The position numbers and the translations under genes were made by a program. 12,357 nt of DNA from Thermoplasmatota archaeon (lineage in GTDB: Archaea; Thermoplasmatota; Thermoplasmata; UBA10834), in NCBI GenBank assembly GCA_040751795.1, contig JBFMHR010000009.1:1-12357 (forward strand). The letters run 5' to 3'. Positions 1-12,357 of the stretch are shown here, in pieces (position 1 is the stretch's first letter; the number at the start of each line of letters is the position of its first letter). Below the pieces are notes generated by a model that worked only from the letters and a program-made list of their open reading frames with translations, was not told the origin of the DNA and did not search any database.

Positions 1-125
1 GGCTTCGCGCGGCTCCCCCGACCGGGGGGCTCCGCCCCCCGATACCCCCCGTACACAACCGTCAACCCCTGGGGGTGGGTCAACTTTCGCGGAGCGGATG
101 GGTCAGTTTTCGCTTGCCGTCTCGA
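1..125. mobile_element. Probable IS21-family-like element end (tandem subterminal repeats, GC hairpin)
   Basis: Direct repeats TGGGTCAACTTTCGC (76-90) and TGGGTCAGTTTTCGC (99-113), 13/15 identical and 23 bp apart, followed by TTGCCGTCTC. The pattern resembles the reiterated transposase-binding repeats at IS21-family ends. The canonical terminal CA is not clearly present and no transposase lies in the window. Confidence 0.5.
23..41. repeat. Perfect GC hairpin CGGGGGGC-TCC-GCCCCCCG
   Basis: 8-bp perfect inverted repeat with a 3-nt loop. No U-tract follows, so it is not called a terminator. Confidence 0.7.
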
Positions 126-139
126 TCGGTCCCCGGCAC

Positions 140-151
140 GACGACATCCTC
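140..151 (-). mobile_element. Possible IS256-family terminal repeat remnant (GAGGATGTC read leftwards)
   Basis: GACATCCTC at 143-151 is the exact reverse complement of GAGGATGTC at 12233-12241. The match extends to GAGGATGTC-GTC vs GAGGATGTCCGTC with one gap. Confidence 0.35.
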
Positions 152-178
152 TATCTGCCAGCCTGGCGGATGGGGGGC

Positions 179-742
179 TCACTCTGCCCGCCGCGCGCGC
201 TGGCCCTCCGCCCACGAGCGCCAGCCGCCGTCGGCGCTCCTGAGCACGATCTCCTCCAGCCAGCCGGCGAGCCGCGGGTCCTCCCCGCCGGTCCGGGCGA
301 CCAGTCGCGCCGCCCCCTGGATCGCCGGCAAATAGCCCGGAAACACCTCCAGCGCGGCCTCGTAGGCCTGGATCGCCTCGTCGGTCTTGCCGGCCCGCTC
401 CAGCGTGATGGCGAGGTTCAACCGGGGATCGGGGTGGCCGGGCATGAGTTTTCGCGCCCACTCGAACTCGCTCGCCGCCTCGTAGAGCTCCTCCCGGGCG
501 AGGTAGAGGACGCCGAGGTTGTTGTGGGCGGGGCCGAAGAAGAGGTCGGCGGCCAACGCTTCCCGCAGGAGAGTCTCGGCCCGTTCGGGATCCTCCTGGA
601 GGAGATCGGCCGCCTCGCGGTTCAGGGCCTGGGCGCGGACTGTATCCCGCTCCGCCTCCGGGGACGGGGAGTAGGGGCCGGCGGGAGTGCTCCGGCAGCC
701 CAGTGCCAAGGAGAAGAGGAGAAGCAGCCCCCAGCCCTTCAT
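179..742 (-). CDS. TPR-repeat lipoprotein, pilotin-like (PilF/PilW/Tgl type), 187 aa
   Basis: Signal peptide MKGWGLLLLFSLALG followed by Cys16 (lipobox). TPR helices are AHNNLGVLYL..., PRLNLAITLERAGKTDEAIQAYEAALEVFP. The start overlaps the secretin stop (ATGA, 739-742). Confidence 0.85.
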   Translation of the reverse strand: MKGWGLLLLFSLALGCRSTPAGPYSPSPEAERDTVRAQALNREAADLLQEDPERAETLLREALAADLFFGPAHNNLGVLYLAREELYEAASEFEWARKLMPGHPDPRLNLAITLERAGKTDEAIQAYEAALEVFPGYLPAIQGAARLVARTGGEDPRLAGWLEEIVLRSADGGWRSWAEGQRARRAE

Positions 743-2883
743 CGGATGACCCTCGGCTCGAGGCGCGGGCAGTCATCGGCGAGGCCCGCCGTCTGCAGGT
801 CCCGCTCGCTCATGAACCGCAGATCCTCGAAGCGGGCGTTTCTGAGCACGGAGCAGCGCAGGAAGACGAAGAAGCGGGAGCGTTCTTTCGTCTCCGACCG
901 GCTCCGGAAGAGGGCCCCGACGAGGGGAAGACTACCCAGGACCGGGACGCGGGAGGTGGCCTCGGTCTCCGCCTCGATCTCGAGCCCCCCGACGACGACG
1001 GCGTAACCGTCGGGCACCGTCGCCACGCTCTGGAGCTTGTTCTCCTGGCGGGGCGGCGGGATTCCCGGATCCGCCGAGTCCCCGACGAAGCGCGAAAGCG
1101 AGACGCTGTAGTCGATGAGGAGCCGATCGCCAGAAGTGATCTGGGGCGTGACGCGGATCTGGGTGCCGGCATCCAGCGTCCCGCCGAAGGAGGTGGTCGC
1201 GACCGTGGTGGAGGCGTTCGTGGCGAGGAAGGGGGTCTGGAGGATCGAGTCGAGGGTGGCGGTCTGGTGGTTGTTGACCAGCACCTTGGGGACGGTGAGG
1301 GTGCGGCCCTCGTTGAGGGTCTCCAGCGCCCGCAGGACACCGGCGAAGCTCCCCGGATCGAGGAGGATCCCCTCGAAGCCCGGGCCGGAGGGGGCGGGGA
1401 GCGAGCGATCCGCGGGCAAGACCTCGCCGGCGAAGAGGGTGGAGACCTGGCCCAGCACGCTGCCGATGCCTCCGCGCTTGGAGAGCGAGACGGCGAGGTC
1501 GCGGGCCTGGCTGTCGGTGAGAGTCACGACGAGCGCCTCGACCAAGACCTGGGGGTGCTCGACATCGAGCGAAGCGACGAGCCGCCCGAGCTCATCGAGG
1601 AGGCGGGGGGGGCCGATCGCCAGGATGCGGTTCGTGCCGGCGTCCTGCGCGAGGGTCACGTCGAGACCGTTGTCGTCAAGTGTCGCGACCTTCTCGCCGG
1701 TCCCGCCCTCGGGAACCGCTTCTGCCGCGCTCCCGTTCTCGGCCAGCGCCGGCAGCTCTTGGCCTCCGAGCAGGTTTTGCAGCAGGGCGAGCATCTCGTC
1801 CACGTCGCGGTTCTTGATCGCGAAGGCCCGCAGGCTGCGCCGAGAATCGGGCTCGGTCGCCTCCAGCCGCGCCATCAAGTCCTCGATCGCCGCATGTTGG
1901 CTCGGGATGGCGGAGATCACGAGCGAGCCGGTGAGCTCGTCCTCGACGAGCCGCCAGGCCCCCGCGGCCGCCTCGCGGGGCACGACCTCCTCGATCAGCC
2001 GGGCGGTCTCGGAAACCTCGAAGCGCCGCGGCACGTACTGGCGGGTCTCGACCGCTTCTTCGTGATCCAGGAGGGAGATCAGGCTTTGCCAGCGCCACAT
2101 CTCCTCCTGCGGGGCGACGATCAGAACCGTGTTGGCGTGGGGATTGGCGAGCACGCTCCCCTCCGGCGCCCCGGCCTCGCTCTTGGCCATGGCCGCGGTC
2201 ACCCGCTCCAGAAGCCCCACGAGCAGAGGAGGCGAGAGATGCTCGGGCCGGACCTCCTCCACCACGCTCGGCGAGAGGGGGGTGTCGAGCAGCGCCAAGA
2301 GCCGGACCGCCTCGGCAACCTGGGGTCTGGGGCCGGCGAGCAGCACCTGACCCGCCTCCGCGAAGACCTGCACGAGGCTGCCGCTCGTCGAGAGGATCTG
2401 CTTCAGGGGGGCCTCAACGCTGCCGCCGTCCACTGCTCCCAGGGGAGCGATGAGCTTGACGAAGCCGGCCCGGGCCGCGTCGAGTGCCCCCTCCTCGACC
2501 CGCGCGAGCTTCGCGGCGTCTTCGAGCGCCACCACCGCGATCGTCTCTTCCCCCGGGGCCTGGACGCTGGCGAGACCCTGCGCGAAGAGCAGGCGGTTCG
2601 TGAGCGCCCACAGTTCTTCATCGCTCAGGCCCGGCCCCGAGCGCAACACGATCCGTCCGCCGATCTTCTGCCGGTCGTACTCGAGGGGGATTTTCAGCGC
2701 GCCGGAGCAGAGGTCCAAGAGGCTCCCGAGATCGAGCTCGTCGGCGAAGGCATGCCAGCGGGGCGAGTCTTCCGGGGCGGGGGGCGAGCGCGATTCCGCG
2801 GTCTCCTCGGGCAAGGGCCGGCGCTGGGCGGCCAGGGGCGCGGCGAGGAGGACGAGGGCCAGGAATGCTCCCGGACTTGGCAC
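739..2883 (-). CDS. gspD: Outer-membrane secretin, type II secretion GspD-like (~714 aa)
   Basis: Secretin motifs include PQVLVEALVV, LTVPKVLVNNHQTATL, AGTQIRVTPQI, VPDGYAVVVGGL, VPVLGSLPLVGALFRS. Repeated Secretin_N units end in ...LLALLD/...LISLLD/...LMARLE/...LVASLD. The likely start is GTG at 2883, giving signal peptide (M)PSPGAFLALVLLAAPLAAQ. The upstream 270 codons of the called 984-aa ORF are low-complexity and overlap another gene. Confidence 0.9.
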   Translation of the reverse strand: MPSPGAFLALVLLAAPLAAQRRPLPEETAESRSPPAPEDSPRWHAFADELDLGSLLDLCSGALKIPLEYDRQKIGGRIVLRSGPGLSDEELWALTNRLLFAQGLASVQAPGEETIAVVALEDAAKLARVEEGALDAARAGFVKLIAPLGAVDGGSVEAPLKQILSTSGSLVQVFAEAGQVLLAGPRPQVAEAVRLLALLDTPLSPSVVEEVRPEHLSPPLLVGLLERVTAAMAKSEAGAPEGSVLANPHANTVLIVAPQEEMWRWQSLISLLDHEEAVETRQYVPRRFEVSETARLIEEVVPREAAAGAWRLVEDELTGSLVISAIPSQHAAIEDLMARLEATEPDSRRSLRAFAIKNRDVDEMLALLQNLLGGQELPALAENGSAAEAVPEGGTGEKVATLDDNGLDVTLAQDAGTNRILAIGPPRLLDELGRLVASLDVEHPQVLVEALVVTLTDSQARDLAVSLSKRGGIGSVLGQVSTLFAGEVLPADRSLPAPSGPGFEGILLDPGSFAGVLRALETLNEGRTLTVPKVLVNNHQTATLDSILQTPFLATNASTTVATTSFGGTLDAGTQIRVTPQITSGDRLLIDYSVSLSRFVGDSADPGIPPPRQENKLQSVATVPDGYAVVVGGLEIEAETEATSRVPVLGSLPLVGALFRSRSETKERSRFFVFLRCSVLRNARFEDLRFMSERDLQTAGLADDCPRLEPRVIR

Positions 2884-3160
2884 CGAGGACCGATTCCGGG
2901 ACGCCGTTGCCGAATTCGGGACTATCCCCCTCGAAGGGAAGGGGAGGCTGCGGTAGGTTCTGCTGGCGACGAGAGGTCCACCCCCTGCCAGAGAGTGGGC
3001 AGGGGGGCAGCCAGAGCTGGCTGCCCCGCCAAGCAACAGCGGGTCTGATTGCAGCCCGTTCGAGCGGTTCACACACCGGCGGGGCAGCCGCCTTCTTATG
3101 GTGTCCTCCCCTTGCGGGGGGCGCGCGCGGGCAAGCATGGCTGGCCCACGGCGGTTCGGA
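2884..3160 (-). other. Highly structured 277-bp intergenic spacer upstream of the secretin gene
   Basis: Perfect stems occur at 2981-2989/2998-3006 (9 bp), 3004-3013/3018-3027 (10 bp) and 3019-3030/3078-3089 (12 bp). A CCCC-GCAA-GGGG hairpin lies on the minus strand at 3108-3119. Confidence 0.55.
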
Positions 3161-3916
3161 TCAGTCGGAGACGGCCGCGTTCCAGGCCGTCTGGACGGTG
3201 GCGAGATAGGTATCGACGTTGCCCTTGGCGGTCGCGATGTCGGCATCGCCGTCCACGCTCGCGAGGTAGTCCTGGACCGCGACGGGGAAGTCTTCGTCGT
3301 ACTGCTCGTGGATGCGACGGGTGGCGAGGGCGTCGGAGAGCTCGACCCAGCCCTCTTGGGTGCGGTCCTCGACGAGGTAGTGGACGGCGAGCCCCCAGAC
3401 GCGGTTGGCGCGGATGCGGCGCAGGATCGCGACCTGGTCGGTAGTAACGGTCGCGAGGCCGGCCTCGAAGTAGCGGTCGAGGAGGCCGTCCCGCGTGGCG
3501 GCCTGGGCGTCGGCGGCGAGCTTCGCCGCCTGGCAGCTCGCGAGCTCTTCGGGGCTCGCCTGGCCGCCGCGGACCTTGCGCACGAGCTGCGAGTAGGAGA
3601 AGTAGTCCTCCTCGTAGGCGGCGTCGGCCGCGGCGAGGGCGGTGGAGGCCTCGCTGATCTCCGATTCGACGGCGGCGACGAGGTCCTGGACATCCTGGGC
3701 GCCGATCACGCCAGAAGCGGCGAGGGCCGGGGCGTCGAGGCGCGCGCGCATGAGGACGTTGCCGAGGGGGGTGTTGGCCGGCGGGGGCGGCGGATCGGGC
3801 GCGGAGGGCGGAGAATCCACCGAATCGAGGGCCAGCGCGAGCCCCAGGACTCCCAGGGGAAGGAGGATGAGGAGGAGCCCCACGATCGAGGCTCCACGGC
3901 GAGGTGACGATTGCAT
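3161..3916 (-). CDS. Exported/membrane-anchored alpha-helical hypothetical protein (251 aa)
   Basis: GGAGG lies 6 nt upstream of ATG 3916. The N-terminus is MQSSPRRG-ASIVGLLLILLPLGVLGLALAL, followed by a Pro-rich linker and an Ala-rich acidic helical body. Third codon positions are strongly G/C. Confidence 0.8.
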   Translation of the reverse strand: MQSSPRRGASIVGLLLILLPLGVLGLALALDSVDSPPSAPDPPPPPANTPLGNVLMRARLDAPALAASGVIGAQDVQDLVAAVESEISEASTALAAADAAYEEDYFSYSQLVRKVRGGQASPEELASCQAAKLAADAQAATRDGLLDRYFEAGLATVTTDQVAILRRIRANRVWGLAVHYLVEDRTQEGWVELSDALATRRIHEQYDEDFPVAVQDYLASVDGDADIATAKGNVDTYLATVQTAWNAAVSD

Positions 3917-4074
3917 GGCAAGCCTCCAGAGGCCAAGAGCGGCCGGAGTTGAGGAAGAACGGGTGCGCGGCACGCGCCGAGCGGTTCACCGTCCAACCTA
4001 GCCGAGGATCCGAAAAAGGGAACAGGAAAAACACCTCGCACCCCTTCCCCTTCCCGGCGATGGGACGGAGACGT

Positions 4075-4109
4075 TGTAAAACTGGTCGTTCCGGGTTTCT
4101 GTGTAAAAC
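4075..4109. promoter_or_regulatory. Direct repeat TGTAAAAC x2, candidate regulator binding site
   Basis: Exact 8-mers at 4075-4082 and 4102-4109 in an AT-richer patch of the divergent intergenic region. Confidence 0.35.
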
Positions 4110-4379
4110 CCATCGAGATTCCCATCTCCCGGACGGACGAGATCGGTCCTGTTGCGAAAGCGAACATCGTCCCCCGATCGACTCCCTCAGCCTCATGGGC
4201 CACACCGTCCGACGGAGTCGCGCGCGGACCGATCGACGCATGCGAAAGGTTCGATGCGATCCGGGGCGGCCTGGGGTCTGGATCGGCGCGGGAGCCGCGA
4301 TGCAACGGCGGGAAAGCACGCAAGTCGTTGCGGGCGGAGCACTTCGCGCGCGCCGCGCGACTTCCGAGGAGAAAGTGGG

Positions 4380-4408
4380 TTGACGCGCGCGGCGGGCGCG
4401 CCTAGCAT
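4380..4408 (+). promoter_or_regulatory. Sigma70-like promoter for the rhs gene
   Basis: TTGACG (4380-4385), a 17-bp spacer and TAGCAT (4403-4408), about 150 bp upstream of the rhs start, in otherwise very GC-rich sequence. Confidence 0.6.
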
Positions 4409-4555
4409 GCCGGTGTGTGACCCGCTCTCTGTCCTTGCGCTCGCTCGCCCGCGTCCCGGCGTGTTGAGCTCTCGGCCTCCCGCGTAGCGGATCGGCCCGG
4501 CCCGCGCCCGGAGCGCGAGCGGCGGGCGTCCGACGCTCGTCGCAAGGTGATCTCC

Positions 4556-6352
4556 ATGCAATCTCGCTCCGCTCTCCGGACGTGGTCTCTTCTCGCTTTC
4601 GTCGCCCTGCTTGCCGCCGCGAGCTCCGCCTTCCTCCTTCCTTGGCGAGGCGCGGTCGCGACGACGACGCCGATCCTCGAGTTCTACGCCCCCTCGATCA
4701 CGACCTACCTGCCCTCGGGCGCGACGGCCGGCCAGGACGTGCGGCCGCTCGCTGAGCAGCGAGCGGTCAACCTCGACGGATCCCTGCGCGCCGCCCCCTC
4801 GGAGCTCATGGCGATCGCCGGCAATCCCTTCGAGAGCGCCTGGGGGGTCGGGCCGAAGGCGGGCGTGCGCCTCGAGACGGGCACCCATGCCCTCCAGGAG
4901 GTGGACATCGCGCTGCCGGCCGAAGGCTTCCCGTGGGTGATCGGGCGGACGTTCAACGCCCACCAGAAGGACTCGGGGGGATCCCACCGCGACAGCGACG
5001 GTTTTCAGGGCCACAACTGGTTCCAGAGCTCGCAGATGGAGATCCAGCTCTTCGAGGACGCCCAAGACAACGACGACGACGTCCTCTACCTCGTTTTTGG
5101 GGCCGAGCGTTACATCGAGTTCGACCGGGTGGACAAGGACCCCGACAGCGACACGTTTAAGGCCACGAACGGCGCAGCGGGCGTGGTGCTCTTCGAGGCG
5201 GGGGCCTCGGGCGAGCCGGACACCTACACGCTGATCGACCAGCACTCGAACGAGATCGTCTTCTTCGGCTTCGACGGGGATGCGGACCCGGCCGCCGGCC
5301 AGATCTGGAAGATCACCGACCCGGACGGGAACTGCGCGTACGTCGGCAACAGCAGCACGGGGAGCACCGCGATCTCCAGCGGCTACAACGCCTCCGGCTA
5401 CATCACGACCGCCTACGATCCCTCCGGGAGGCGCTTCTCCTACACCTACACGACGCTTGACAGCGTGGACCGGCTGACCCAGGTGAAGGCGGAGGTGAAC
5501 GACGGGGGCTGGGTCGAGGTCGCTCGCGTGGACTACGAGTACTACACGAGCGAGGACCACGGAGACGCGGGCGACCTGAAGCTCGTCGAGATCACGACGC
5601 CCCTCTCCGACTCGGGAGTGAGTGTTTCCCGCAAGAAGTACTACCGCTACTGGGAGGGGAGTTTTGACAGCTCGACGAACCCCGGCCACGTCCACGCGAT
5701 CAAGTACGTCGTCGGCTTCGAGGGGACGAGAAACCAGGACTGGGAGGACCAGAGCTTCGACGAGGACTTCCTCTCCTTGAGCGACGCGAACCTGGAACCC
5801 TACGCGGCGGCCTACTTCGAGTACGACTCGAGCCACCGGATCGACAAGTGCTGGGCGAACGGCGAGTGCGGGTGCGGGGGCGGGTGCGACGGGACGCACG
5901 AGTTCGAGTACGAGTCGAACGGCAGCTTCTCGGACACCACCGGTTCCTACGACACGGCCTGGAAGACGCGGACCATCATCAAGCGCCCGGACCTGACCTA
6001 CGAGACCTGGTACTTCGACGAGGCGGTGCAGGCGCTGCACCAGGTGATCACCGACGCCGACCCCGACAACACGAACCCTGCTCCCGCGACCTGGGCGACC
6101 AAGATCGTGCGGGACTCGAACGGCTGGGTCACGAGCATCCACTCGCCGGCGAACGTGACCGACTACACCCATTCGTCGGCCTCGTTTACCACCAGCACGA
6201 CCGCGGGCCTTGTGACCCACGTCGGCCGCGTGGACGCGAACGAGCTCAAGGGCTTCGTGGATGAGGAGAAGTGGTCGGCGGGAACATCGGGGACCGCCTA
6301 CTACGATACGGAGTGGGCCTGGACGAAGGCGGAGCTTGCCTCCTGGGGGGGG
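4556..6352 (+). CDS. rhs: Rhs/YD-repeat protein, N-terminal part (signal peptide + DUF6531-like domain + YD repeats), interrupted by a frameshift
   Basis: AAGGTGA SD-like site precedes ATG 4556. Signal peptide is MQSRSALRTWSLLAFVALLAAASSA. GVRLETGTHALQEVDIALPAEGFPWVIGRTFN is DUF6531-like. YD units include AYDPSGRRFSYTY. D/T/Y-rich coding quality stops at the G8 tract, after which this frame becomes Arg-rich nonsense until the stop at 6859. Confidence 0.85.
6345..6352 (+). repeat. G8 homopolymer at the rhs frameshift
   Basis: TCCT-GGGGGGGG-CACG. Removing one G gives ...ELASWGGTSLDEDIGRPF... and fuses both ORFs into one 2101-aa protein (4556-10862). Confidence 0.85.
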
Positions 6353-9300
6353 CACGAGCCTGGACGAGGACATCGGCCGGCCGTTCCTGGACAAGCGCTA
6401 CGACTACCACGCCGTCTCGACCAGCACCGCCGATCGGATCGAGACCGACTACACGACGAACGTCACCTCGGGGACGCTGGCCATCAGCGACACGAACCTC
6501 GCCTACGTCGAGCCCACGTCCGCCGGCGGGGGCGGCTACACCGATCTCGACGAGACCCTCTACTACGACGACGACGGGGTCCAGTCCTGGACGAAGCACA
6601 AGGACGCGACGATCAGCTACCGCGGCTACACGGACGGGCGGATGACCACGTCCATCGAGGACGTGGACACCGCGCAGACCTCGAACGAGCCGCAGGGGCT
6701 GTCGAGCAGCGGCACGGAGATCCACCGGACCACGACCTACGCCTACGACAAGCAGGGCCGGCTCACGACCACGACCTTCGCGGACGGGCAGGTCACGAAG
6801 TCCTACTACACGAAGCTCGCCGATGGGCGGCTCGTGACCCTCGGCTACCAGGATTTTGAGACCTCGCCCTCGACCAAGTACTACGGGCCGGTCTCCTACT
6901 CCGTCACGAACCACGCCGGCAAGGTCGAGTTCGAGGGGCGGGTCGCGTTGACGAACAACGAGTCCACCACCACGCTGGCGAACCACGTGGACGAGGCGGA
7001 GAGCGATCCGCTCTTGGCGATGGACCTCGGGACGGTCTGCCGGATGACGACCCACGTCTACGACGACACCGGGACGAGGCTCCAAGAGTCTCGCCTCTAC
7101 TTTGACATCCCCGCGTCCGGTGCGGGGAGTGACGGGACCAATTACGACCCGACCAAGTTTGGGTATGACGACATGGGGCGGCGGTGGCGGACGAAGGAGG
7201 CGTCCGGCACTATCCACCGCACGGTCCACGACGATCTTGGTCGGGTCGCGTCCCGCTGGATAGGCACGAACGACTCTTCCTTCTCCGGCGGCGAGACTTC
7301 GGGCACCGACGACATGGTGAAGACGGAAGAGCTCGTCTACGACGCGGGAGCGGATGGGGGGAACTCCTACCTCACGAAGCGCACGCTCTACGTCCAGGGG
7401 GACGCGACTGGCAAGCGCGAGACCTCCTACACGAACGACGTGCGGGGAAGGGCGCTGGTCGAGGACCGGCCTACCGCGCCCCATACCTTCCACAAGTACG
7501 ACAACCGCGGCCGAAGACTCGGGACCGGACTCTTCAGCTCGACCGCGAACATCGTGGCCGGGACGGACGACCCCACGACCGAGACGAGCAACCGCCTGGC
7601 GCTCTCCGAGTGGGCGTTCAACGACCTCGGGCAGCTCTACGCCACGAAGCAGAACAAGATCGACGATGCCGACGGATCGGATGACGACGAGATCACGACC
7701 GAGTACGGCTACGACGAGATGGGCCGGCGGATCTACGTGCAGGGGGGCGAGTACGCCAAGACCTTCTATGACCGGCTGGGGCGGGAGACGCACCACCTGG
7801 TTCTGGCCGACGAGAACGACACGACGTACGGGGATCGGACCCAAAGCACCTCGTCGGGGGACACGATCCTGGAGGAGCACCAGACCGTCTTTGATTCCGA
7901 CAACGACGACATCCTGATGCGCGTCGGGATCATGCGCTTCCCGAGCTCGCTCATGAACACGAAGCTCGACAGCGAGGCCGACGGAGATCGGCTTCTCGTC
8001 ACCGATGCGAACATCACGGGGCGGGTCCAGATCTCGGCCTACTGGTACGACGAGCTCGGGCGGGAGACCGACCGGATCGCGTACGGGACCTACGGCGAGA
8101 GCGATTTCGATCGGGACGGGCTCTCGGTGCCCTCGCGCTCGGACACGGAGCTCGTGACGAGCACGGACTACGGCGACGACGGGGAGGTGCTGGACATCAC
8201 CGATCCCCGGGCCTTCGTGATGCACTTCGACTACGACGACGCCGGAAGGCAGACGAAGGTCCGCCGCCACTACGACGCGAACGTGAACGGCGGCAACCCG
8301 AGCGGCACGGATGACAACCAGACCGTCGTCTACGAGTACACCGACGGCCTGCGCACCAAGATCAAGGTGGACATGCCGGCGGGGACCGACGACCAAGAAA
8401 CGATCTACACCTACGGGGTCACCAAGGGGACCTCGGCGGGGGACTCGAAGATCGGCAACAAGAACCTCCTCTGGAAGGTCCAGTACCCGGACTCCTCCGG
8501 GGGCACGGATGTGGTGAGCTACGCCTACAACGCCCAGCAGGAGAGGATCTACGAGAAGGACCAAGAGGGGAACGTCATCGAGAACGACTTCGATGACTCG
8601 GGACGGCAGACCCACCGCCGGATCACGACGCTCGATGCCGACTTCGACGGGGACGTGCGGCGGATCACGACCGCCTACGACAACCTGGGGCGCCGCAGCA
8701 CGATCACCCAGTACGACAACGCCACCGTCGGCAGCGGGACGGTGGTGGACGAGGTGAAGTTCACCTACGACGACTGGGGAAACGTGGACAAGTACGAGCA
8801 GGACCACGACAGCACGGTCGGGGGTGGCGGGTCTCTTGCCTACTACGAGGTGAGCTACAGCTACGAGAAGGACCTCGACGGCCGGCCGGCGGTTCGCAAG
8901 ACCGGGGTCACGCTGCCCAGCGGCAACGTGATCACCTACGGCTACGGATCCGCCGGGTCACAGCACGACGACGCCGACCTCGTCCTCACCGTGAAGGACG
9001 ACACGGTGACGCTGGCGACCTACACCTATCTCGGCTCCGCGATGGTGGTGCGGACCACCTACAACGAGCCGGGGATCTTCTCCACCCTCTACACCTCCGG
9101 CTACGGCACCTACGGGAACCTCGACCGCTTCAACCGGGTGACGACCTCGAGCTGGACGAGCGACCTCGCCACCGACCGCGACTTCTACGACGTGGACATG
9201 TCTTACGACCGAAACGGCAACGTCACGCTCGTGAACGACAACACCCATGCCGGCAAGGATGTGTCCTACACGATGGACGACCTCGATCGCCTCGCTCGGG

Positions 9301-10862
9301 CCCAGCAGGGCACGTGGGGCGGGTCGTCGATCAGCTCGGAAAAGCGGGACGAGGAGTGGACGCTCGACCACACCGGGAACTGGGACTTCTATCGGCTCGA
9401 CTTCAACGACGACGGCGACGGGCTCGACACGAACGAGCTCGAGGACGACCGCACCCACAACAAGGTGAACGAACTGTTGGGGCGGGACACCGACGACAAC
9501 GGGACGGACAACTACACCCTCGTCTACGACGCCGATGGCAACCTGACCGACGACGACGAGACCTACAAGTACACCTACGACCCCTTCGGGCGGCTCTGCC
9601 TGATCCAGAACCAGTCGAGCGCCACCGTCGCGGACATGGAGTACAACGGCCTGGGGCACCTGAAGAGCATCCACGCCGATACCGACGACGACGGGGACGT
9701 GGACGCTTCCGACAAGTGGTTCCACGCGGCCTACGACGAGGCCTGGCGGATGGTCGCCTACTACCGGGAGGCTGACGACGATCCCAAGGAGGAGTTCGTG
9801 CCGGCCCAGGCGGGCGTTGACGGGGAGGGGGGAAGCTCCTACATTAACGGCGTGGTCTGCCGCAACAAGGATGCCAACACAGCCTGGACGGATGCGTCCG
9901 ACGGGGTGCTCGAAGAGCGGCTCTTCTACTGCCAGAACTGGCGGGGGGACGTGGTGGCGCTCGTCCACAAGAACCGGCTGCAGGTCGAGTCGGTCCGCTA
10001 CTCCCCCTACGGGGAGCCCTTCGGGCTGCCCGAGCCGGATGCCGACTCCGACGGGGACCGGGACGCGGCGGACGGGACGCAGATCAGCGCGTGGATCAAC
10101 CAGAGCGCCTACGACGTGCGGGGGGACGTGGACCTCGACGGGGACGTGGACTCGACCGACCTCGACTGGGGGACGACGTACGGGGCGGCGACGCTGGGAT
10201 GGGGGGAGCTGAGTTGGAGAGCGAATAGGATGGGGTTTGCTGGATCCGAGAAGCTAGCGAACGCCCCCCGCCTATATTCGGCCCGCAATCGTGCGTACAA
10301 CTGGAACGCTGGAAGATGGTCGAGCCGAGACCCATTGCCGTATATAGACGGACCTTCCTTGTATGCCTTCGCAAGTGAGAATCCGGCTATTCATGTTGAT
10401 CCTTCAGGGCTCCTCGGCTGTGCAATGCCGGGAGGTGGTAATCCTGGCTTTCCAGACCTGTTCAGCTATGGATGTTTCTGCGGCAACAAGGCCGGTCCGC
10501 CTCCGGTAGGCGAACAGGCGCCTGCAGGCTGGGATTGCGACAAAGTCCCCGGTATGGATGCTTTGGATCAGTGCTGCTGCAAGCACGATCAAGCCAACCC
10601 TATGGGCCAGTCCTGGTGGCAAACCGTCAAGAACTGGTTTACGAGCGCGTGCGATCTCGCAGATTGCGCCCTTGAGAGTGTGAGCTCGGAAAGCGTAGAC
10701 CTTGGGGCTGCCGCATGTGTGTTCTACTTTGCGTGTCAAACTTGCCCCAAGCCCAAATGCTGGGGTCTCGCAAACGCGGCACTAGGGGCCTGCGCCGCGT
10801 GGCTAGCTGCCGGGACGCCAAAGCCGTGCGTGCCGTACTGGTTGATCCCGCTGGTCTGGTAG
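6351..10862 (+). CDS. rhs: Rhs protein, C-terminal part: YD-repeat shell, Rhs core and toxin tip
   Basis: Many YD repeats (YAYDKQGRL, FGYDDMGRR, YGYDEMGRR, YTYDPFGRL). The core reads RYSPYGEP...RAYNWNAGRWSSRDP...LYAFASENPAIHVDPSGL (PxxxxDPxGL, ending at 10412). Confidence 0.92.
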   Translation, partial: GTSLDEDIGRPFLDKRYDYHAVSTSTADRIETDYTTNVTSGTLAISDTNLAYVEPTSAGGGGYTDLDETLYYDDDGVQSWTKHKDATISYRGYTDGRMTTSIEDVDTAQTSNEPQGLSSSGTEIHRTTTYAYDKQGRLTTTTFADGQVTKSYYTKLADGRLVTLGYQDFETSPSTKYYGPVSYSVTNHAGKVEFEGRVALTNNESTTTLANHVDEAESDPLLAMDLGTVCRMTTHVYDDTGTRLQESRLYFDIPASGAGSDGTNYDPTKFGYDDMGRRWRTKEASGTIHRTVHDDLGRVASRWIGTNDSSFSGGETSGTDDMVKTEELVYDAGADGGNSYLTKRTLYVQGDATGKRETSYTNDVRGRALVEDRPTAPHTFHKYDNRGRRLGTGLFSSTANIVAGTDDPTTETSNRLALSEWAFNDLGQLYATKQNKIDDADGSDDDEITTEYGYDEMGRRIYVQGGEYAKTFYDRLGRETHHLVLADENDTTYGDRTQSTSSGDTILEEHQTVFDSDNDDILMRVGIMRFPSSLMNTKLDSEADGDRLLVTDANITGRVQISAYWYDELGRETDRIAYGTYGESDFDRDGLSVPSRSDTELVTSTDYGDDGEVLDITDPRAFVMHFDYDDAGRQTKVRRHYDANVNGGNPSGTDDNQTVVYEYTDGLRTKIKVDMPAGTDDQETIYTYGVTKGTSAGDSKIGNKNLLWKVQYPDSSGGTDVVSYAYNAQQERIYEKDQEGNVIENDFDDSGRQTHRRITTLDADFDGDVRRITTAYDNLGRRSTITQYDNATVGSGTVVDEVKFTYDDWGNVDKYEQDHDSTVGGGGSLAYYEVSYSYEKDLDGRPAVRKTGVTLPSGNVITYGYGSAGSQHDDADLVLTVKDDTVTLATYTYLGSAMVVRTTYNEPGIFSTLYTSGYGTYGNLDRFNRVTTSSWTSDLATDRDFYDVDMSYDRNGNVTLVNDNTHAGKDVSYTMDDLDRLARAQQGTWGGSSISSEKRDEEWTLDHTGNWDFYRLDFNDDGDGLDTNELEDDRTHNKVNELLGRDTDDNGTDNYTLVYDADGNLTDDDETYKYTYDPFGRLCLIQNQSSATVADMEYNGLGHLKSIHADTDDDGDVDASDKWFHAAYDEAWRMVAYYREADDDPKEEFVPAQAGVDGEGGSSYINGVVCRNKDANTAWTDASDGVLEERLFYCQNWRGDVVALVHKNRLQVESVRYSPYGEPFGLPEPDADSDGDRDAADGTQISAWINQSAYDVRGDVDLDGDVDSTDLDWGTTYGAATLGWGELSWRANRMGFAGSEKLANAPRLYSARNRAYNWNAGRWSSRDPLPYIDGPSLYAFASENPAIHVDPSGLLGCAMPGGGNPGFPDLFSYGCFCGNKAGPPPVGEQAPAGWDCDKVPGMDALDQCCCKHDQANPMGQSWWQTVKNWFTSACDLADCALESVSSESVDLGAAACVFYFACQTCPKPKCWGLANAALGACAAWLAAGTPKPCVPYWLIPLVW
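10038..10160 (+). other. Dockerin/EF-hand-like duplicated Ca-binding insert in the Rhs core
   Basis: DADSDGDRDAAD...GDVDLDGDVDSTD are two DxDxDG loops about 29 aa apart, inserted between YSPYGEP and MGFAG. Confidence 0.65.
10413..10862 (+). other. C-terminal toxin domain: secretory phospholipase A2-like (149 aa, 15 Cys)
   Basis: YGCFCG (10467-10484) matches the sPLA2 Ca-loop YGCxCG. DALDQCCCKHD (ending 10589) matches the active-site helix DxxDxCCxxHD. A later ACDLADC is a candidate second catalytic Asp helix. Confidence 0.8.
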
Positions 10863-11149
10863 TGGAGAAGACCATGGCACACGAGGTCCCAGCCCGGCAG
10901 TGGGGTATTGTGGTGGACCACCGAAGGGGCACGTGGGGCTGGGAGCAGTACCGTGGTAATCAGGGATGACGATCATGGGCTACTGGGTTGTTGATGCCGG
11001 TGACGCTCTCTGGGGCGGTGCGCGATTGTTTGGACACGTGCTTGGGCCCGACCGCGCCGCATCACGTCCGAGGCCGGTTCCCCCGACCGCCCCCGACAAC
11101 TCACCCTTGCGTCCAAGAAACCCGGTTCGCTACAGATGGGGGACGAAGC

Positions 11150-12217
11150 GTGGAACTCGCAGATGACCCGAGAAACGGCCGAGAGTGCGCGCGGGCAGTC
11201 ACAGGCAGCATCAGCCGAATCCTCGTTGGAGCCCTGCTAGTCGCGAGCGCGTTCGGCGTGGCCCTTATGGTGGGCGGTCCCCTTGCCTGCTTCTTTCTTA
11301 CACAGGGTGAGCCTCTGCCGACCATGGATGGTCCAGAGGACGAGGACCTGCGGTCGGAGGTGAGGTGCACCCTGGTGATCGCACAATCCCACACGTATGC
11401 CGAGGGATTGATACTCCTGAGACTGCCGGAGGGGGAAAGTACCCACGTTGAGCTGGAGGACCCCTCCATCAGCCATAGCGCAATCGCGTGTGACGGCTCG
11501 GTGGCCTACCTCACGAGACGGTCGGAGAGCCTGCTCCTGCGAGTCAAGGATGTGGAGAGTGGAAGAGAGCAGACGGTGCTGCAGCGATCAGGGGACTTCA
11601 TCGATGGATCGAGCGTCTCTCTGTCCCCGGACGGAAGGTACCTCACACTGCTCACCAGCGAGGACCGGGGGGGATTCAAGAGAACCCCAGGGCAATTGGA
11701 ACTAGTAGATCGGAGGGGAACAACCATGAGGATAATAAACGACTGCCAGATAGGAAGGGAAGTCCATTGGCTGGCGGATAGCGTTCACTATGTTTTCGAT
11801 AGTAAGGATGGAGTGCACATCGGAAGCATGAACAAAGCTGAGGATGTGCATATTCCAGGGGCCGTCGAGGCGATTACCGGGGAGTCTTCCACGCTCGTCC
11901 TCGTAATTGGCCGCGACCCGATCTATGCTATCGATCGGAACGGGCGGTATCGGTTGTACGACGTAGTGAAAGAACGCTACGTTGATGACATCGTACTACC
12001 GGGGGATCTTTTCGGCCCTATCGGTTTTACGGACACGGGGCTTGTGCTATACGAAGCCTTGCCGACCACAGGCACCGAGCAGAAACTGCTTGGGTGGGGC
12101 CTGACATATCCGAGTGCACAATGGACCATCAAGGTGTGCGATCCTGGATCCGGTCGTTTTGCGACCGTTGTGCCGCACTATGGATACGGAAGGATCGCGT
12201 TCGGGTCGTCCATCTGA
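11150..12217 (+). CDS. Membrane-anchored TolB-like beta-propeller protein, candidate immunity protein (~355 aa; start uncertain)
   Basis: A hydrophobic segment ILVGALLVASAFGVALMVGGPLACFFL is followed by blade-like repeats (IACDGSVAYL, LSPDGRYLTL, WLADSVHYVF, FTDTGLVLY). It lies downstream of the Rhs tip and shares its lower-GC codon style. GTG 11150 is preferred over TTG 10988 because it puts the TM segment near the N-terminus and has GGGGGA upstream. Confidence 0.7.
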   Translation: MELADDPRNGRECARAVTGSISRILVGALLVASAFGVALMVGGPLACFFLTQGEPLPTMDGPEDEDLRSEVRCTLVIAQSHTYAEGLILLRLPEGESTHVELEDPSISHSAIACDGSVAYLTRRSESLLLRVKDVESGREQTVLQRSGDFIDGSSVSLSPDGRYLTLLTSEDRGGFKRTPGQLELVDRRGTTMRIINDCQIGREVHWLADSVHYVFDSKDGVHIGSMNKAEDVHIPGAVEAITGESSTLVLVIGRDPIYAIDRNGRYRLYDVVKERYVDDIVLPGDLFGPIGFTDTGLVLYEALPTTGTEQKLLGWGLTYPSAQWTIKVCDPGSGRFATVVPHYGYGRIAFGSSI

Positions 12218-12232
12218 CACGATGATTTCTGC

Positions 12233-12357
12233 GAGGATGTCCGTCCCCGTGTGAGATTTGATCGGGCGGGCCGGGGGGATCATGCCACGTCCTTGGATTC
12301 GTTCAAGGACACGTTTTCGAGGGCCACGAGGAGCTTGGGGATGGCGGCGTGACCCTT
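12233..12357 (-). mobile_element. Right end of a probable IS256-family element
   Basis: The terminus GAGGATGTCC... begins at 12233, 47 bp beyond the stop of a minus-strand ORF with an IS256-transposase-like C-terminus. Confidence 0.6.
12280..12357 (-). CDS. 3' end of probable IS256-family transposase (partial, runs off the window)
   Basis: The minus strand reads KGHAAIPKLLVALENVSLNESKDVA-stop, resembling the FRR(I/L)KGxxx(L/I)PxLxxAL C-terminus of many IS256 transposases. Only 25 aa are visible. Confidence 0.6.
   Translation of the reverse strand, partial: KGHAAIPKLLVALENVSLNESKDVA

What the first reader, a model, noticed from the sequence alone, without database searches (positions are those of the whole stretch)
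10413..10862. Venom-type, disulfide-rich phospholipase A2 as an Rhs warhead
Seen: the 149-aa tip has 15 Cys, YGCFCG and DALDQCCCKHD, and a hydrophobic C-terminus (..VPYWLIPLVW). Both Rhs autoprotease Asp motifs (RDP, DPSG) are intact. Established: YGCxCG plus DxCCxxHD are signatures of animal group I/II-type secretory PLA2s. Deviations are the loss of the GxG after the Ca loop and of the Tyr three residues after HD. Inference: a membrane-attacking toxin needing oxidative folding, which fits a Sec/periplasmic route rather than T6SS. It may target eukaryotic grazers or hosts, or the bacterial envelope.
Basis: partly seen in the sequence, partly recalled or inferred. Interest (0 to 1): 0.8.

Follow-up and report, generated by a model that had tools for sequence, protein, structure and literature searches.

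The report
Orphan phospholipase-A2-like Rhs toxin tip
A large secreted bacterial shell protein (Rhs type) ends in a small cysteine-rich domain carrying the active-site hallmarks of secreted phospholipase A2; that kind of warhead is already described on such toxins, but this version has no detectable relatives.

Summary
The last 149 residues (10413-10859) have 15 Cys, YGCFCG, DALDQCCCKHD and a hydrophobic tail, directly after an intact Rhs core (RDP...DPSGL). The two motifs each occur once in the six-frame translation of the 2.05-Mb assembly, both in the tip.

The tip is most likely a divergent secreted-PLA2-superfamily domain. The evidence is motifs plus marginal profile scores, not fold. Pfam and NCBIfam find nothing, two AlphaFold runs failed (pLDDT 47 and 36), and no homologue was found in the large protein and contig collections.

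"Venom-type group I/II" is not supported as membership. The long spacer between the calcium loop and the active site, and the hydrophobic tail, are shared with a signal-peptide RHS-repeat protein from a viral-collection contig. The nearest solved structure to the joint profile is rice sPLA2.

- The gene starts at 4556 with a signal peptide and is frame-broken at a G8 run (6345-6352).
- Core, tip and the downstream membrane-anchored beta-propeller gene form a low-GC3 cassette (0.58-0.67, against 0.92-0.93 in the shell).
- The contig is probably a bacterial piece mis-binned into an archaeal assembly.

PLA2 tips on RHS toxins have been in print since 2012 (Tox-PLA2). I rate this a new variant of a known kind, of moderate interest.

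The parts
4556..4642 (+). Start of the Rhs gene: ATG preceded by AAGGTGAT, then a signal-peptide-like N-terminus (MQSRSALRTWSLLAFVALLAAASSAF...)
   Evidence: Read by eye; no signal-peptide predictor was available.
4556..6344 (+). N-terminal part of the Rhs protein (about 596 aa), with a weak DUF6531 match and the first RHS repeat. GC3 0.92.
   Evidence: DUF6531 E 4e-4, 21.1 bits, below the 24.1 cut-off; RHS_repeat 20.8 bits..
6345..6352 (+). Run of 8 G where the sensible reading passes from one frame to the next. The gene is frame-broken here as assembled.
   Evidence: A second G8 run at 1605-1612 lies in frame inside the secretin ORF.
6357..10184 (+). YD/RHS-repeat shell in the second frame, GC3 0.93. 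It ends with two Asp-rich dockerin-like repeats (10037-10073 and 10124-10160).
10200..10412 (+). Rhs-associated core (TIGR03696) with SSRDP (10320-10334) and DPSGL (10398-10412), the expected self-cleavage site. GC3 has already dropped to 0.58 from about 10185.
   Evidence: 46 bits, cut-off 32.5.
10413..10862 (+). The 149-aa tip plus stop codon: 15 Cys, a single His (H58), no Arg, GC3 0.65. Read as an sPLA2-superfamily-like toxin domain.
10467..10484 (+). YGCFCG (tip residues 19-24), the first half of the sPLA2 calcium loop. The following GG of XCGXGG is replaced by NKA.
   Evidence: Motif definition from PMC3111613.
10557..10589 (+). DALDQCCCKHD (tip residues 49-59), the DxCCxxHD catalytic motif, with candidate catalytic His58 and calcium-binding Asp59.
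   Evidence: Motif definition from PMC3111613 and PMC9995887.
10650..10667 (+). C80-D81-L-A-D-C85, aligned by hhalign, MAFFT and HMMER to the comparators' invariant CD....C. This is the candidate equivalent of Asp99 in the pig enzyme.
10698..10718 (+). D96-LGAAA-C102, a second candidate for the Asp99...Cys105 helix. HMMER aligned it to CDRNAAIC of pig PLA2.
   Evidence: The assignment is ambiguous against D81.
10749..10859 (+). Cys-containing hydrophobic C-terminal extension (tip residues 113-149). Its AAGTPKPCVPYW resembles AAGGSPGLIVPFW in the RHS-linked tip of L023.
   Evidence: hydropathy; alignment.
11150..12217 (+). Downstream ORF of 355 aa (GTG start): one N-terminal membrane helix, then a PD40/TolB-like beta-propeller. 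GC3 0.665. Candidate immunity protein by position and shared composition only.
   Evidence: atlas feature score 0.93; structure TM about 0.6 to TolB/PD40 propellers. No Pfam or NCBIfam hit.
10185..12217 (+). Compositionally distinct cassette (core, tip and downstream ORF) with GC3 0.58-0.67, against 0.92-0.93 in the shell.
739..3693 (-). GspD/PilQ-type secretin, divergently oriented from the Rhs gene. It is the only secretin in the assembly.
   Evidence: Secretin E 1.9e-28; Secretin_N E 4.4e-22.
179..742 (-). TPR protein resembling the secretin pilotins PilW/Tgl. Its start overlaps the secretin stop.
   Evidence: PilW 33.4 bits, Tgl 30.6 bits; all matches below the curated cut-offs.

Best explanation
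The window carries one long Rhs/YD-repeat polymorphic toxin gene (4556-10862) of a high-GC diderm bacterium.

Proposed mechanism:
1. The protein is made with a Sec signal peptide and forms the usual YD-repeat shell.
2. It cuts itself at DPSGL|L and so releases a 149-residue tip.
3. The tip is a divergent member of the secreted-phospholipase-A2 superfamily. Its core is residues 1-90: calcium loop Y19-G24, catalytic His58/Asp59 on a helix, and a partner Asp at D81 or D96. At least the two disulfides essential in the pig enzyme (C29-C45 and C44-C105 equivalents) hold it together.
4. A Cys-rich hydrophobic tail (113-149) follows. It probably provides the membrane-binding face that the missing N-terminal helix gives in animal enzymes.
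5. The tip folds only in an oxidising compartment and hydrolyses membrane phospholipid of the target.

The core, tip and the next gene were acquired together as a cassette. That next gene, a membrane-anchored periplasmic beta-propeller, is the best candidate for the immunity protein.

Shown: the gene anatomy, the motifs, the cassette composition and the signal-peptide-like start. Inferred: the fold, enzyme activity, target, export across the outer membrane and immunity.
For: - Motifs far beyond chance.
- 9 of 9 PDB hits of tip residues 1-27 are group I/II PLA2s, aligned at their residues 10-30.
- All named nearest atlas clusters are PLA2-clan families (PF09056, PF06951, PF00068, PF08398), at score 0.80.
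- BLASTP to the tip of an independent signal-peptide, DUF6531, RHS-repeat protein (L023/L030) gives an ungapped 44-residue match: 34% identity, E 1e-4, with the same 30-residue spacer.
- With the catalytic motif held fixed, the similarity still exceeds 99% of shuffles for 2 of 4 comparators: 30/3000 and 26/3000.
- MAFFT and hhalign make D52, C54, C55, H58, D59, C80, D81 and C85 invariant with four sPLA2-like domains.
- The comparator profile hits only PLA2s in the PDB: 53 of 53 at E<=1. Adding the tip raises this to 94 hits (the 60 shown are all PLA2) and improves the best E from 7.7e-4 to 6.8e-5.
- The tip is the top hit of the comparator profile among 15,580 six-frame pieces, E 0.01; the next is 3.2.
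- Cys51 and its partner Cys98 of the pig numbering are both absent if D96 is the Asp99 equivalent, while the C29, C44 and C45 equivalents are kept. Only the C29-C45 and C44-C105 equivalent bridges are retained in plant PLA2-like proteins too, and the paper cites Zhu et al. 1995 for their being vital for catalysis in the pig enzyme (PMC9995887, passages).
- Low-confidence AlphaFold models place the HD motif and both candidate Asp motifs in helices.
- Signal-peptide-like start; Rhs core over the curated cut-off.
- GC3 step at 10185 shared by core, tip and the downstream ORF.
- Tox-PLA2 on RHS repeats with Sec/T2SS export is a described architecture (PMC3482391).
Against: - No Pfam or NCBIfam model matches the tip, even at E<=10.
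- phmmer of the whole tip against the PDB gives only E 3.6 to pig PLA2, and residues 45-112 alone retrieve no PLA2.
- hhalign probability is only 12.6%.
- 2 of 4 comparators are not significant once the catalytic motif is fixed: 313/3000 and 379/3000.
- The comparators were chosen by the catalytic motif, so those columns agree by construction.
- The fold is untested: pLDDT 47 and 36, and Foldseek on the poor model gave no PLA2.
- The calcium loop lacks the GG of XCGXGG and Tyr52 is absent, so catalysis could be impaired.
- The Asp99 equivalent is ambiguous (D81 or D96).
- The Cys count is odd (15).
- No homologue exists to show conservation.
- The gene is frame-broken as assembled.
- As of Zhang et al. 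2012, beta-propellers had not been found among polymorphic-toxin immunity proteins, and Tox-PLA2 has no immunity family listed.
Confidence: 0.5

Rival explanations
1. The tip is a PLA2-derived but catalytically dead membrane-damaging toxin, comparable to the Lys49 snake myotoxins. Under this reading the damaged calcium loop abolishes hydrolysis, and the hydrophobic, aromatic C-terminal tail perturbs the bilayer directly.
For: The calcium loop reads CGNKAG instead of XCGXGG and is followed by a 16-residue longer spacer. Tyr52 and Cys51 are missing. The tail (113-149) is the most hydrophobic part of the tip, and a similar tail is kept in the RHS-linked tip of L023. That Lys49 myotoxins act through their C-terminal region is my recollection, not a call.
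Against: His58-Asp59 and a candidate partner Asp are retained, and H58 is the only His in the tip. The RHS-linked comparator with the same long spacer keeps the complete DxCCxxHDxCY motif. The calcium ligands of the loop are backbone carbonyls in the canonical enzyme (recalled), so side-chain changes need not abolish binding.
Confidence: 0.17
2. The gene is a dead remnant. The frame break at the G8 run is real and fixed, so the signal-peptide part and the shell-plus-tip part are not made as one protein, and the tip is not delivered.
For: The two frames meet at 6345-6352 and no start codon with an export signal heads the second frame.
Against: There is no other stop or frame break in 6.3 kb. 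GC3 is equally high (0.92 and 0.93) on both sides of the break, so any inactivation is very recent. Homopolymer runs are classic sites of assembly error and of reversible phase variation (established knowledge). Reads could not be inspected because no run was listed.
Confidence: 0.22
3. The tip is an unrelated cysteine-rich domain, for example a pore-former or a binding module, and its PLA2-like motifs are convergent or fortuitous.
For: No curated family model matches. There is no confident structure. The tip has no homologues. The atlas score of 0.80 is reached by a third of shuffled proteins.
Against: The joint motif expectation is about 4e-12. The motif order, the helix placement, the PLA2-only PDB hits and the ungapped match to an RHS-linked sPLA2-like tip are hard to obtain by convergence.
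Confidence: 0.08

Closest known systems
Tox-PLA2 of polymorphic toxin systems (Zhang, de Souza, Anantharaman, Iyer, Aravind 2012, PMC3482391; passages read)
   Same: A phospholipase-A2-fold toxin domain at the C-terminus of RHS- or ALF-repeat proteins, exported by the Sec/T2SS route, with no immunity family assigned.
   Different: Tox-PLA2 is modelled on the Streptomyces enzyme (PDB 1kp4) with motifs DxC[ST] and CxxHxxxYxN. The tip has neither motif (it reads CKHDQANPM), and PF09056 does not match it. It has 15 Cys and the YGCxCG / DxCCxxHD signatures instead.
Conventional secreted PLA2s, groups I/II/V/X (Pfam PF00068; pig pancreatic 1fx9, snake venom 2qhd)
   Same: YGC[YF]CG including the Cys27 equivalent, DxCCxxHD, and equivalents of C29, C44 and C45. 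A CA[IM]PG...D..YGC stretch aligns to pig residues 11-30.
   Different: No PF00068 match. The tip lacks the N-terminal helix, the GG of the calcium loop, Cys51 and Tyr52. The spacer is 16 residues longer, the region after the HD motif is shorter, and there is an extra hydrophobic tail of about 60 residues.
Signal-peptide, DUF6531, RHS-repeat protein with a C-terminal sPLA2-like domain on an IMG/VR contig (L030:1087-3705, 872 aa)
   Same: The same N-terminal architecture (signal peptide, DUF6531, RHS repeats) and a PLA2-like tip. Both share the 30-residue spacer between CG and CC and a similar AAG.P..VP[YF]W hydrophobic tail.
   Different: Only 34% identity over 44 residues. Its tip keeps HDxCY and has YGYWCG, without the Cys27 equivalent. 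No DPxGL Rhs core separates repeats from tip. The protein is much shorter, and its downstream genes are two 94-aa ORFs rather than a propeller.
Plant group XI secreted PLA2 (rice, PDB 2wg7/2wg8) and the plant PLA2-like subfamily (PMC9995887; passages read)
   Same: This is the best solved match of the profile that includes the tip (E 6.8e-5). It has a short helix-to-helix distance, and plant PLA2-like proteins also lose the Cys after HD while keeping the two core disulfides.
   Different: Plants have YGKYCGxxxxGC, no long spacer and no hydrophobic tail. They are stand-alone secreted enzymes.
T6SS Tle phospholipase effectors with periplasmic Tli immunity proteins (recalled, not tested here)
   Same: Membrane-lipid attack from the periplasmic side, countered by a periplasm-facing immunity protein encoded next door.
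   Different: Tle enzymes have alpha/beta-hydrolase or PLD folds and are delivered by T6SS. No T6SS marker is linked to this contig.

Membership tests
Rhs/YD-repeat polymorphic toxin | YD/RHS repeats forming the shell | tested here: met
   YD_repeat_2x (TIGR01643) 34.5 bits, over the 15.8 cut-off. Pfam RHS_repeat 21.4 and 20.8 bits, just under the 22 cut-off, in both frames.
Rhs/YD-repeat polymorphic toxin | Rhs-associated core ending in the DPxGL self-cleavage motif, followed by a variable tip | tested here: met
   TIGR03696 46 bits against a 32.5 cut-off, ending at DPSGL (10398-10412). Cleavage itself was not tested.
Rhs/YD-repeat polymorphic toxin | Tip and neighbouring gene form a compositionally distinct, exchangeable cassette | tested here: met
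   GC3 is 0.58-0.67 from 10185 to 12217, against 0.92-0.93 upstream. Exchange among relatives could not be tested because no relatives were found.
Rhs/YD-repeat polymorphic toxin | One uninterrupted reading frame | tested here: not met
   The frame changes at the G8 run at 6345-6352. Whether this is a sequencing error, phase variation or decay is unresolved.
Secreted PLA2 superfamily | Catalytic motif DxCCxxHD | tested here: met
   D52-Q-C54-C55-C56-K-H58-D59. It occurs once in 4.1 million six-frame residues of the assembly. Motif as given in PMC3111613.
Secreted PLA2 superfamily | Calcium-binding loop XCGXGG (Y-G-C-Y-C-G-x-G-G) | tested here: inconclusive
   The first half is present (YGCFCG). 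The second half reads NKA instead of xGG.
Secreted PLA2 superfamily | Second-helix Asp (Asp99) with the CD....C motif | tested here: inconclusive
   There are two candidates. C80-D81...C85 is chosen by hhalign, MAFFT and HMMER with a 2-residue gap. D96...C102 has canonical spacing and is chosen by phmmer against pig PLA2.
Secreted PLA2 superfamily | Core disulfides C29-C45 and C44-C105 | tested here: inconclusive
   C23, C54 and C55 are present at the expected motif positions, and C85 or C102 could be the C105 equivalent. The pairing itself is not testable without a structure.
Secreted PLA2 superfamily | sPLA2 fold | tested here: inconclusive
   AlphaFold without an alignment gave pLDDT 47.4 (149 aa) and 36.2 (residues 1-112). 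Foldseek on the poor model gave no match at E<=0.001 and no PLA2.
Conventional sPLA2 groups I/II/V/X (Pfam PF00068) | Score over the Pfam gathering threshold | tested here: not met
   No match at E<=10 by hmmscan or by a six-frame search of the assembly. The clearly PLA2-motif-bearing RHS-linked tip of L023 is also missed, so the model is insensitive for such domains.
Conventional sPLA2 groups I/II/V/X (Pfam PF00068) | N-terminal amphipathic helix, HDxCY (Cys51, Tyr52) and six conserved disulfides | tested here: not met
   Only 18 Pro/Gly-rich residues precede YGC, and the tip has HDQAN. Six absolutely conserved disulfides are stated in PMC3111613.
Tox-PLA2 / prokaryotic group XIV PLA2 (PF09056; PDB 1kp4) | Motifs DxC[ST] and CxxHxxxYxN; a PF09056 match | tested here: not met
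   The motif is absent (the tip reads CCKHDQANPM) and there is no PF09056 hit. Motifs as listed in PMC3482391.
Toxin-immunity pair | The downstream protein binds and neutralises the tip | not testable with these tools
   Only position, shared GC3 and membrane-anchored periplasmic topology point to it.

The most novel reading that the evidence does not exclude
The tip may be the first sampled member of an otherwise unseen lineage of bacterial Rhs warheads. It keeps the conventional, animal-type YGCxCG / DxCCxxHD signature, including the Cys27 equivalent. With the RHS-linked tip of L030, it would link the microbial polymorphic-toxin pool to eukaryotic conventional sPLA2s. It would be neutralised by a membrane-anchored PD40 beta-propeller, a fold not recorded among polymorphic-toxin immunity proteins in the 2012 survey.
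Probability: 0.2. Interest if true: 0.7.

Novelty: new variant of a known kind. Interest (0 to 1): 0.45.

Why it matters
If the tip is an active lipase, secreted-PLA2 chemistry in bacterial contact or secreted toxins would extend beyond the Streptomyces-type Tox-PLA2 to a disulfide-rich form with the conventional motifs. It would also give a compact enzyme that replaces the usual N-terminal membrane-binding helix with a C-terminal hydrophobic tail.

The tip bears on where eukaryotic sPLA2s came from. It also shows that curated family models miss such domains: Pfam also misses the RHS-linked tip of L023.

Its practical value is limited. There is a single, frame-broken copy on a short contig that is probably mis-binned, and no relatives are available for comparison.

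Tried and rejected
Searches for relatives of the tip, all blank:
- phmmer over 1.84 billion representatives gave one hit, P0004, a Cna-B-like repeat protein matched in 8 stretches. I judged it spurious.
- The word-indexed search of 5.8 billion clusters, run by tip region, near lengths and longer lengths, returned only the window's own protein.
- Genome contigs, metagenome contigs and viral contigs returned nothing with either the Rhs protein or the tip alone.
- tblastn against phages and plasmids: no match.
- Earlier notes of this scan, searched by sequence and by words: nothing on Rhs-PLA2.

Fold:
- Two AlphaFold jobs without an alignment failed.
- Foldseek on the poor model was meaningless.

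Family hits judged spurious:
- A PF00068 search of 400 genomes of the assembly's phylum gave one 24-bit hit (L004). It lies in an alternative frame of another gene.

Comparator fishing:
- The pattern for YGC[YF]CGxGG in viral contigs gave 8 loci, none a PLA2; all were out-of-frame Gly/Tyr-rich repeats.
- The pattern for DxCCxxHDxCY gave 8 loci. I used 4 (L023, L024, L025, L027).
- I dropped the other 4 (L022, L026, L028, L029) because the motif sat in ORF pieces of 36-108 residues without the other motifs.

Other attempts:
- Complex prediction of the tip with the downstream ectodomain: no verdict.
- Sequencing runs: none was listed and no RNA holder was listed, so the G-run length and expression could not be checked.
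- The secretin as a taxonomic probe in genome contigs: nothing.
- Absence of TssC and PAAR in the assembly: rejected as evidence on the secretion route, because the contig is probably not from the assembled organism.
- Tetranucleotide distance of the contig (upper 6.5% of 12-kb chunks): inconclusive on its own.
- Literature: 'phospholipase A2' + 'Rhs' + 'polymorphic toxin' gave 8 papers (6 listed), of which only PMC3482391 bears on this. 'Tox-PLA2' gave 1 paper. 'secreted phospholipase A2' + bacteria + HGT + PF00068 gave nothing relevant among the 15 listed. I found no report of an Rhs tip with the YGCxCG / DxCCxxHD signature in these three searches.


Full report
**1. The observation**

It holds 15 Cys, which are 15 of the 19 Cys in the 1533-residue frame. 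It has a single His, no Arg, YGCFCG at residues 19-24, DALDQCCCKHD at 49-59, and a hydrophobic end ...VPYWLIPLVW.

It follows directly on an Rhs-associated core (TIGR03696, 46 bits against a cut-off of 32.5) that ends in DPSGL at 10398-10412, with SSRDP 21 residues earlier.

The motifs are not chance:
- In 300,000 shuffles of the tip, YGC[YFW]CG appeared 8 times, D.CC..HD 6 times and D..AA.C 5086 times.
- The joint ordered expectation is about 4e-12.
- In the six-frame translation of the whole assembly (4.1 million residues), the first two motifs occur once each, both in the tip.

**2. The gene is larger than reported, and broken**

A second frame (4547-6859) carries a weak DUF6531 match and an RHS repeat. 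It begins, after an AAGGTGAT ribosome-binding site, with MQSRSALRTWSLLAFVALLAAASSAF..., which looks like a signal peptide. No predictor was available, so this is read by eye.

The sensible reading passes from this frame to the frame of the tip at a run of eight G at 6345-6352. As assembled, the gene is therefore split into a part of about 596 residues and a part of about 1500 residues.

GC3 is 0.92 and 0.93 on the two sides, and there is no other interruption in 6.3 kb. The break is therefore an assembly error, a phase-variable tract or a very recent lesion. No sequencing run was listed, so I could not look at reads.

**3. A cassette**

GC3 falls from 0.93 to about 0.6 at about 10185, roughly 70 codons before DPSGL, and stays there:
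- core part, 0.58;
- tip, 0.65;
- next ORF (11150-12217), 0.665.

That ORF has a GTG start, 355 residues, one N-terminal membrane helix, and no Pfam or NCBIfam match. In the ESM Atlas its neighbours are PD40/TolB-like beta-propellers (feature score 0.93; structural TM about 0.6).

Position, shared composition and periplasm-facing topology make it the candidate immunity gene. Nothing more supports this. A complex prediction gave no verdict and counts neither way. As of the 2012 survey, no beta-propeller had been found among polymorphic-toxin immunity proteins (PMC3482391, passages).

**4. Whose DNA is it?**

The window is a whole 12.4-kb contig of a 2.05-Mb, 53-contig assembly. That assembly is archaeal:
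- rpoB_arch scores 990 bits while the bacterial rpoB model scores only 186.
- Earlier notes of this scan call it Thermoplasmatota.

Several lines argue that the contig does not belong to it:
- It carries the assembly's only secretin, followed by a PilW/Tgl-like TPR gene.
- Secretin was found in only 1 of 400 other genomes of the phylum.
- In 554 long ORFs of the large contigs, AGA/AGG make up a median 63% of Arg codons, and only 1.3% of those ORFs have 20% or less.
- The window's Rhs gene has 7 AGA/AGG of 99 Arg codons, the secretin 23 of 97 and the TPR gene 1 of 18.
- The assembly's other Rhs gene, on contig C1, has 74 of 138, like the archaeal ORFs.
- A 200-bp element at 126-331 recurs on the small contigs C52, C6 and C24, which also avoid AGR codons.

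I conclude, at about 85%, that the contig comes from a high-GC diderm bacterium co-binned with the archaeon. It follows that the absence of TssC and PAAR from the assembly says nothing about the toxin's delivery. No relative of the Rhs protein or the secretin was found that could name the host.

**5. What the tip is**

Curated models are silent. There is no Pfam or NCBIfam match at E<=10, and PF00068 finds nothing in the assembly.

The tip has no detectable homologue:
- phmmer over 1.84 billion representatives returned only a spurious repeat protein.
- Three word-indexed searches returned only the window's own protein.
- Contig scans and phage/plasmid tblastn returned nothing.

The fold is therefore untested.

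The positive evidence is at sequence level.

(a) Tip residues 1-27 retrieve 9 PDB sequences at E<=10. All are group I/II PLA2s aligned at their residues 10-30 (best 2qhd, E 0.062), including a CA[IM]PG...D..YGC[YF]CG match to the pig enzyme. Residues 45-112 alone retrieve no PLA2.

(b) The atlas's nearest named clusters are all PLA2-clan families, but at score 0.80, which a third of shuffled proteins reach.

(c) To obtain comparators I scanned viral contigs with a back-translated DxCCxxHDxCY pattern.
- Of 8 loci, 4 encode real sPLA2-like domains; the other 4 were dropped as short fragments.
- Their profile hits only PLA2s in the PDB: 53 of 53 at E<=1, best rice sPLA2 at 7.7e-4.
- One of them, L023/L030, is an 872-residue protein built of signal peptide, DUF6531, RHS repeats and a PLA2-like tip. 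This is the architecture that Zhang et al. 2012 list as Tox-PLA2 on RHS repeats with Sec export.
- Pfam misses its PLA2 domain too.
- BLASTP of our tip against that tip gives an ungapped 44-residue alignment from YG.xCG to HD: 34% identity, E 1e-4 for the single comparison.
- The 16-residue 'insertion' relative to the pig enzyme is therefore a shared feature of RHS-linked tips.

(d) With the catalytic motif held fixed, Smith-Waterman scores still exceed about 99% of shuffles for L023 (30/3000) and L025 (26/3000). They do not for L024 (313/3000) or L027 (379/3000). The alignment also pairs the tails AAGTPKPCVPYW and AAGGSPGLIVPFW.

(e) Alignment-based tests:
- hhalign of the four comparators against the tip gives E 0.0023 but a probability of only 12.6%.
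- MAFFT makes D52, C54, C55, H58, D59, C80, D81 and C85 invariant.
- Adding the tip to the profile raises the PDB PLA2 hits to 94 (the 60 shown are all PLA2) and the best E to 6.8e-5.
- With all filters off, the comparator profile ranks the tip first among 15,580 six-frame pieces of the assembly (E 0.01; next 3.2).

The comparators were selected by the catalytic motif, so agreement in those columns is by construction. The calcium loop, the spacing, the CD...C motif and the tail are the independent parts.

**6. Mapping on the canonical enzyme**

Conventional sPLA2s are defined by XCGXGG, DXCCXXHD and six conserved disulfides. Groups III and XII share only the loop and the catalytic site (PMC3111613, passages).

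The tip keeps:
- the C27, C29, C44 and C45 equivalents (C21, C23, C54, C55);
- His48/Asp49 (H58/D59).

It lacks:
- the GG of the loop;
- Cys51 and Tyr52;
- the N-terminal helix.

Plant PLA2-like proteins likewise lose the Cys after HD and keep only the C29-C45 and C44-C105 equivalents. These are the two bridges the paper cites as vital in the pig enzyme (PMC9995887, passages).

The partner Asp is ambiguous. D81, in C80-D81...C85, is chosen by three aligners. D96, in D96...C102, has the canonical spacing and is chosen by phmmer against the pig chain. The low-confidence models put all three motifs in helices.

The last 60 residues, with seven more Cys and the most hydrophobic segment, have no counterpart in animal enzymes.

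**7. Mechanism proposed**

The proposal has seven steps:
1. Sec export.
2. Shell formation.
3. Self-cleavage at DPSGL|L.
4. Release of the tip.
5. Oxidative folding of the tip outside the cytoplasm.
6. Membrane docking through the tail.
7. His58/Asp59-dependent hydrolysis of phospholipid.

The producer would be protected by the membrane-anchored propeller. The divergently transcribed secretin-pilotin pair next door could provide passage across the outer membrane, but this is inference from adjacency only.

My odds:
- homology to the sPLA2 superfamily, about 0.85;
- an active lipase given homology, about 0.65;
- the whole statement, about 0.5.

The main rivals are a catalytically dead, membrane-perturbing PLA2 derivative (0.17), a dead gene (0.22, which is independent of what the tip is) and an unrelated Cys-rich domain (0.08). 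Whether the target is bacterial or eukaryotic is open. A cognate immunity gene would favour bacteria.

**8. Comparison and novelty**

A PLA2 warhead on an RHS toxin with Sec export has been in print since 2012, so the kind is known.

This tip is not that family: it lacks the DxC[ST] and CxxHxxxYxN motifs and gives no PF09056 match. It is not a member of PF00068 either.

It is best described as a new, so far unique variant. It has the conventional-type motifs, the long spacer of RHS-linked tips, an extra disulfide-rich hydrophobic tail and a propeller neighbour. In the three literature searches I ran I found no report of such a tip.

Interest is moderate (0.45). The motif finding is real and the orphan status is striking. 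However, the class is known, the fold and activity are untested, the only copy is frame-broken, and the host is unknown.

Noticed in passing
window 1-12357 (whole contig C53), against contigs C1, C12, C23, C34, C45, C50 and C51 of the assembly: The contig is probably a bacterial piece binned into an archaeal (Thermoplasmatota) assembly. It has the only secretin. AGA/AGG make up 7-24% of Arg codons, against a median 63% in 554 archaeal ORFs.
   Followed up: yes
window 126-331; also C52:14190-14337, C6:3527-3720 and C24:1554-1655: A stretch of about 200 bp (76-84% identical) is shared by four small contigs. It encodes the C-terminus (...GEDPRLAGW.EEIVLRSADG.WRSWAEGQ) of paralogous proteins, which in the window is the PilW/Tgl-like TPR gene after the secretin.
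   Followed up: partly
L009 (assembly contig C52), 4590-13539: A CRISPR-Cas locus with Cas3 and a Cas4-Cas1 fusion lies on a 17.7-kb contig whose codon usage resembles the window's, not the archaeon's. It may belong to the same contaminating bacterium.
   Followed up: no
assembly contig C1:416729-426238 (part in L002): A second Rhs-type giant ORF (about 3170 codons) lies on a large archaeal contig and has archaeal Arg-codon usage (74 of 138 AGR). It has an Rhs core over the cut-off and a long hydrophobic tip. It appears to be a genuine archaeal Rhs protein, unrelated in sequence to the window's.
   Followed up: partly
L030:1087-3705 (IMG/VR contig of 51,960 nt): An 872-aa protein with signal peptide, DUF6531, RHS repeats and a C-terminal sPLA2-like domain, but no DPxGL core between repeats and tip. 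Pfam does not recognise the PLA2 part. Two paralogous 94-aa ORFs follow.
   Followed up: partly
L025 and L027 (the same 140-kb IMG/VR contig, 72.3 kb and 132.7 kb): Two separate ORFs on one large phage-like contig each end in a small sPLA2-like module (FCLPGGY.YCGK...D.CC..HD.CY...CD....C), scoring only sub-threshold on PF08398 and PF00068.
   Followed up: no
window 1605-1612: A second run of eight G lies inside the secretin ORF without breaking its frame. This bears on whether the Rhs G-run is an assembly error.
   Followed up: no
window 10037-10073 and 10124-10160: Two Asp-rich repeats (DADSDGDRDAAD / DVDLDGDVDSTD), dockerin- or calcium-binding-like, sit between the last YD repeats and the Rhs core.
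   Followed up: no
L013 (G246:C38:1952-2431): The only other secretin hit among 400 genomes of the archaeal phylum lies on a small contig of an 80-contig assembly. It is probably contamination as well.
   Followed up: no
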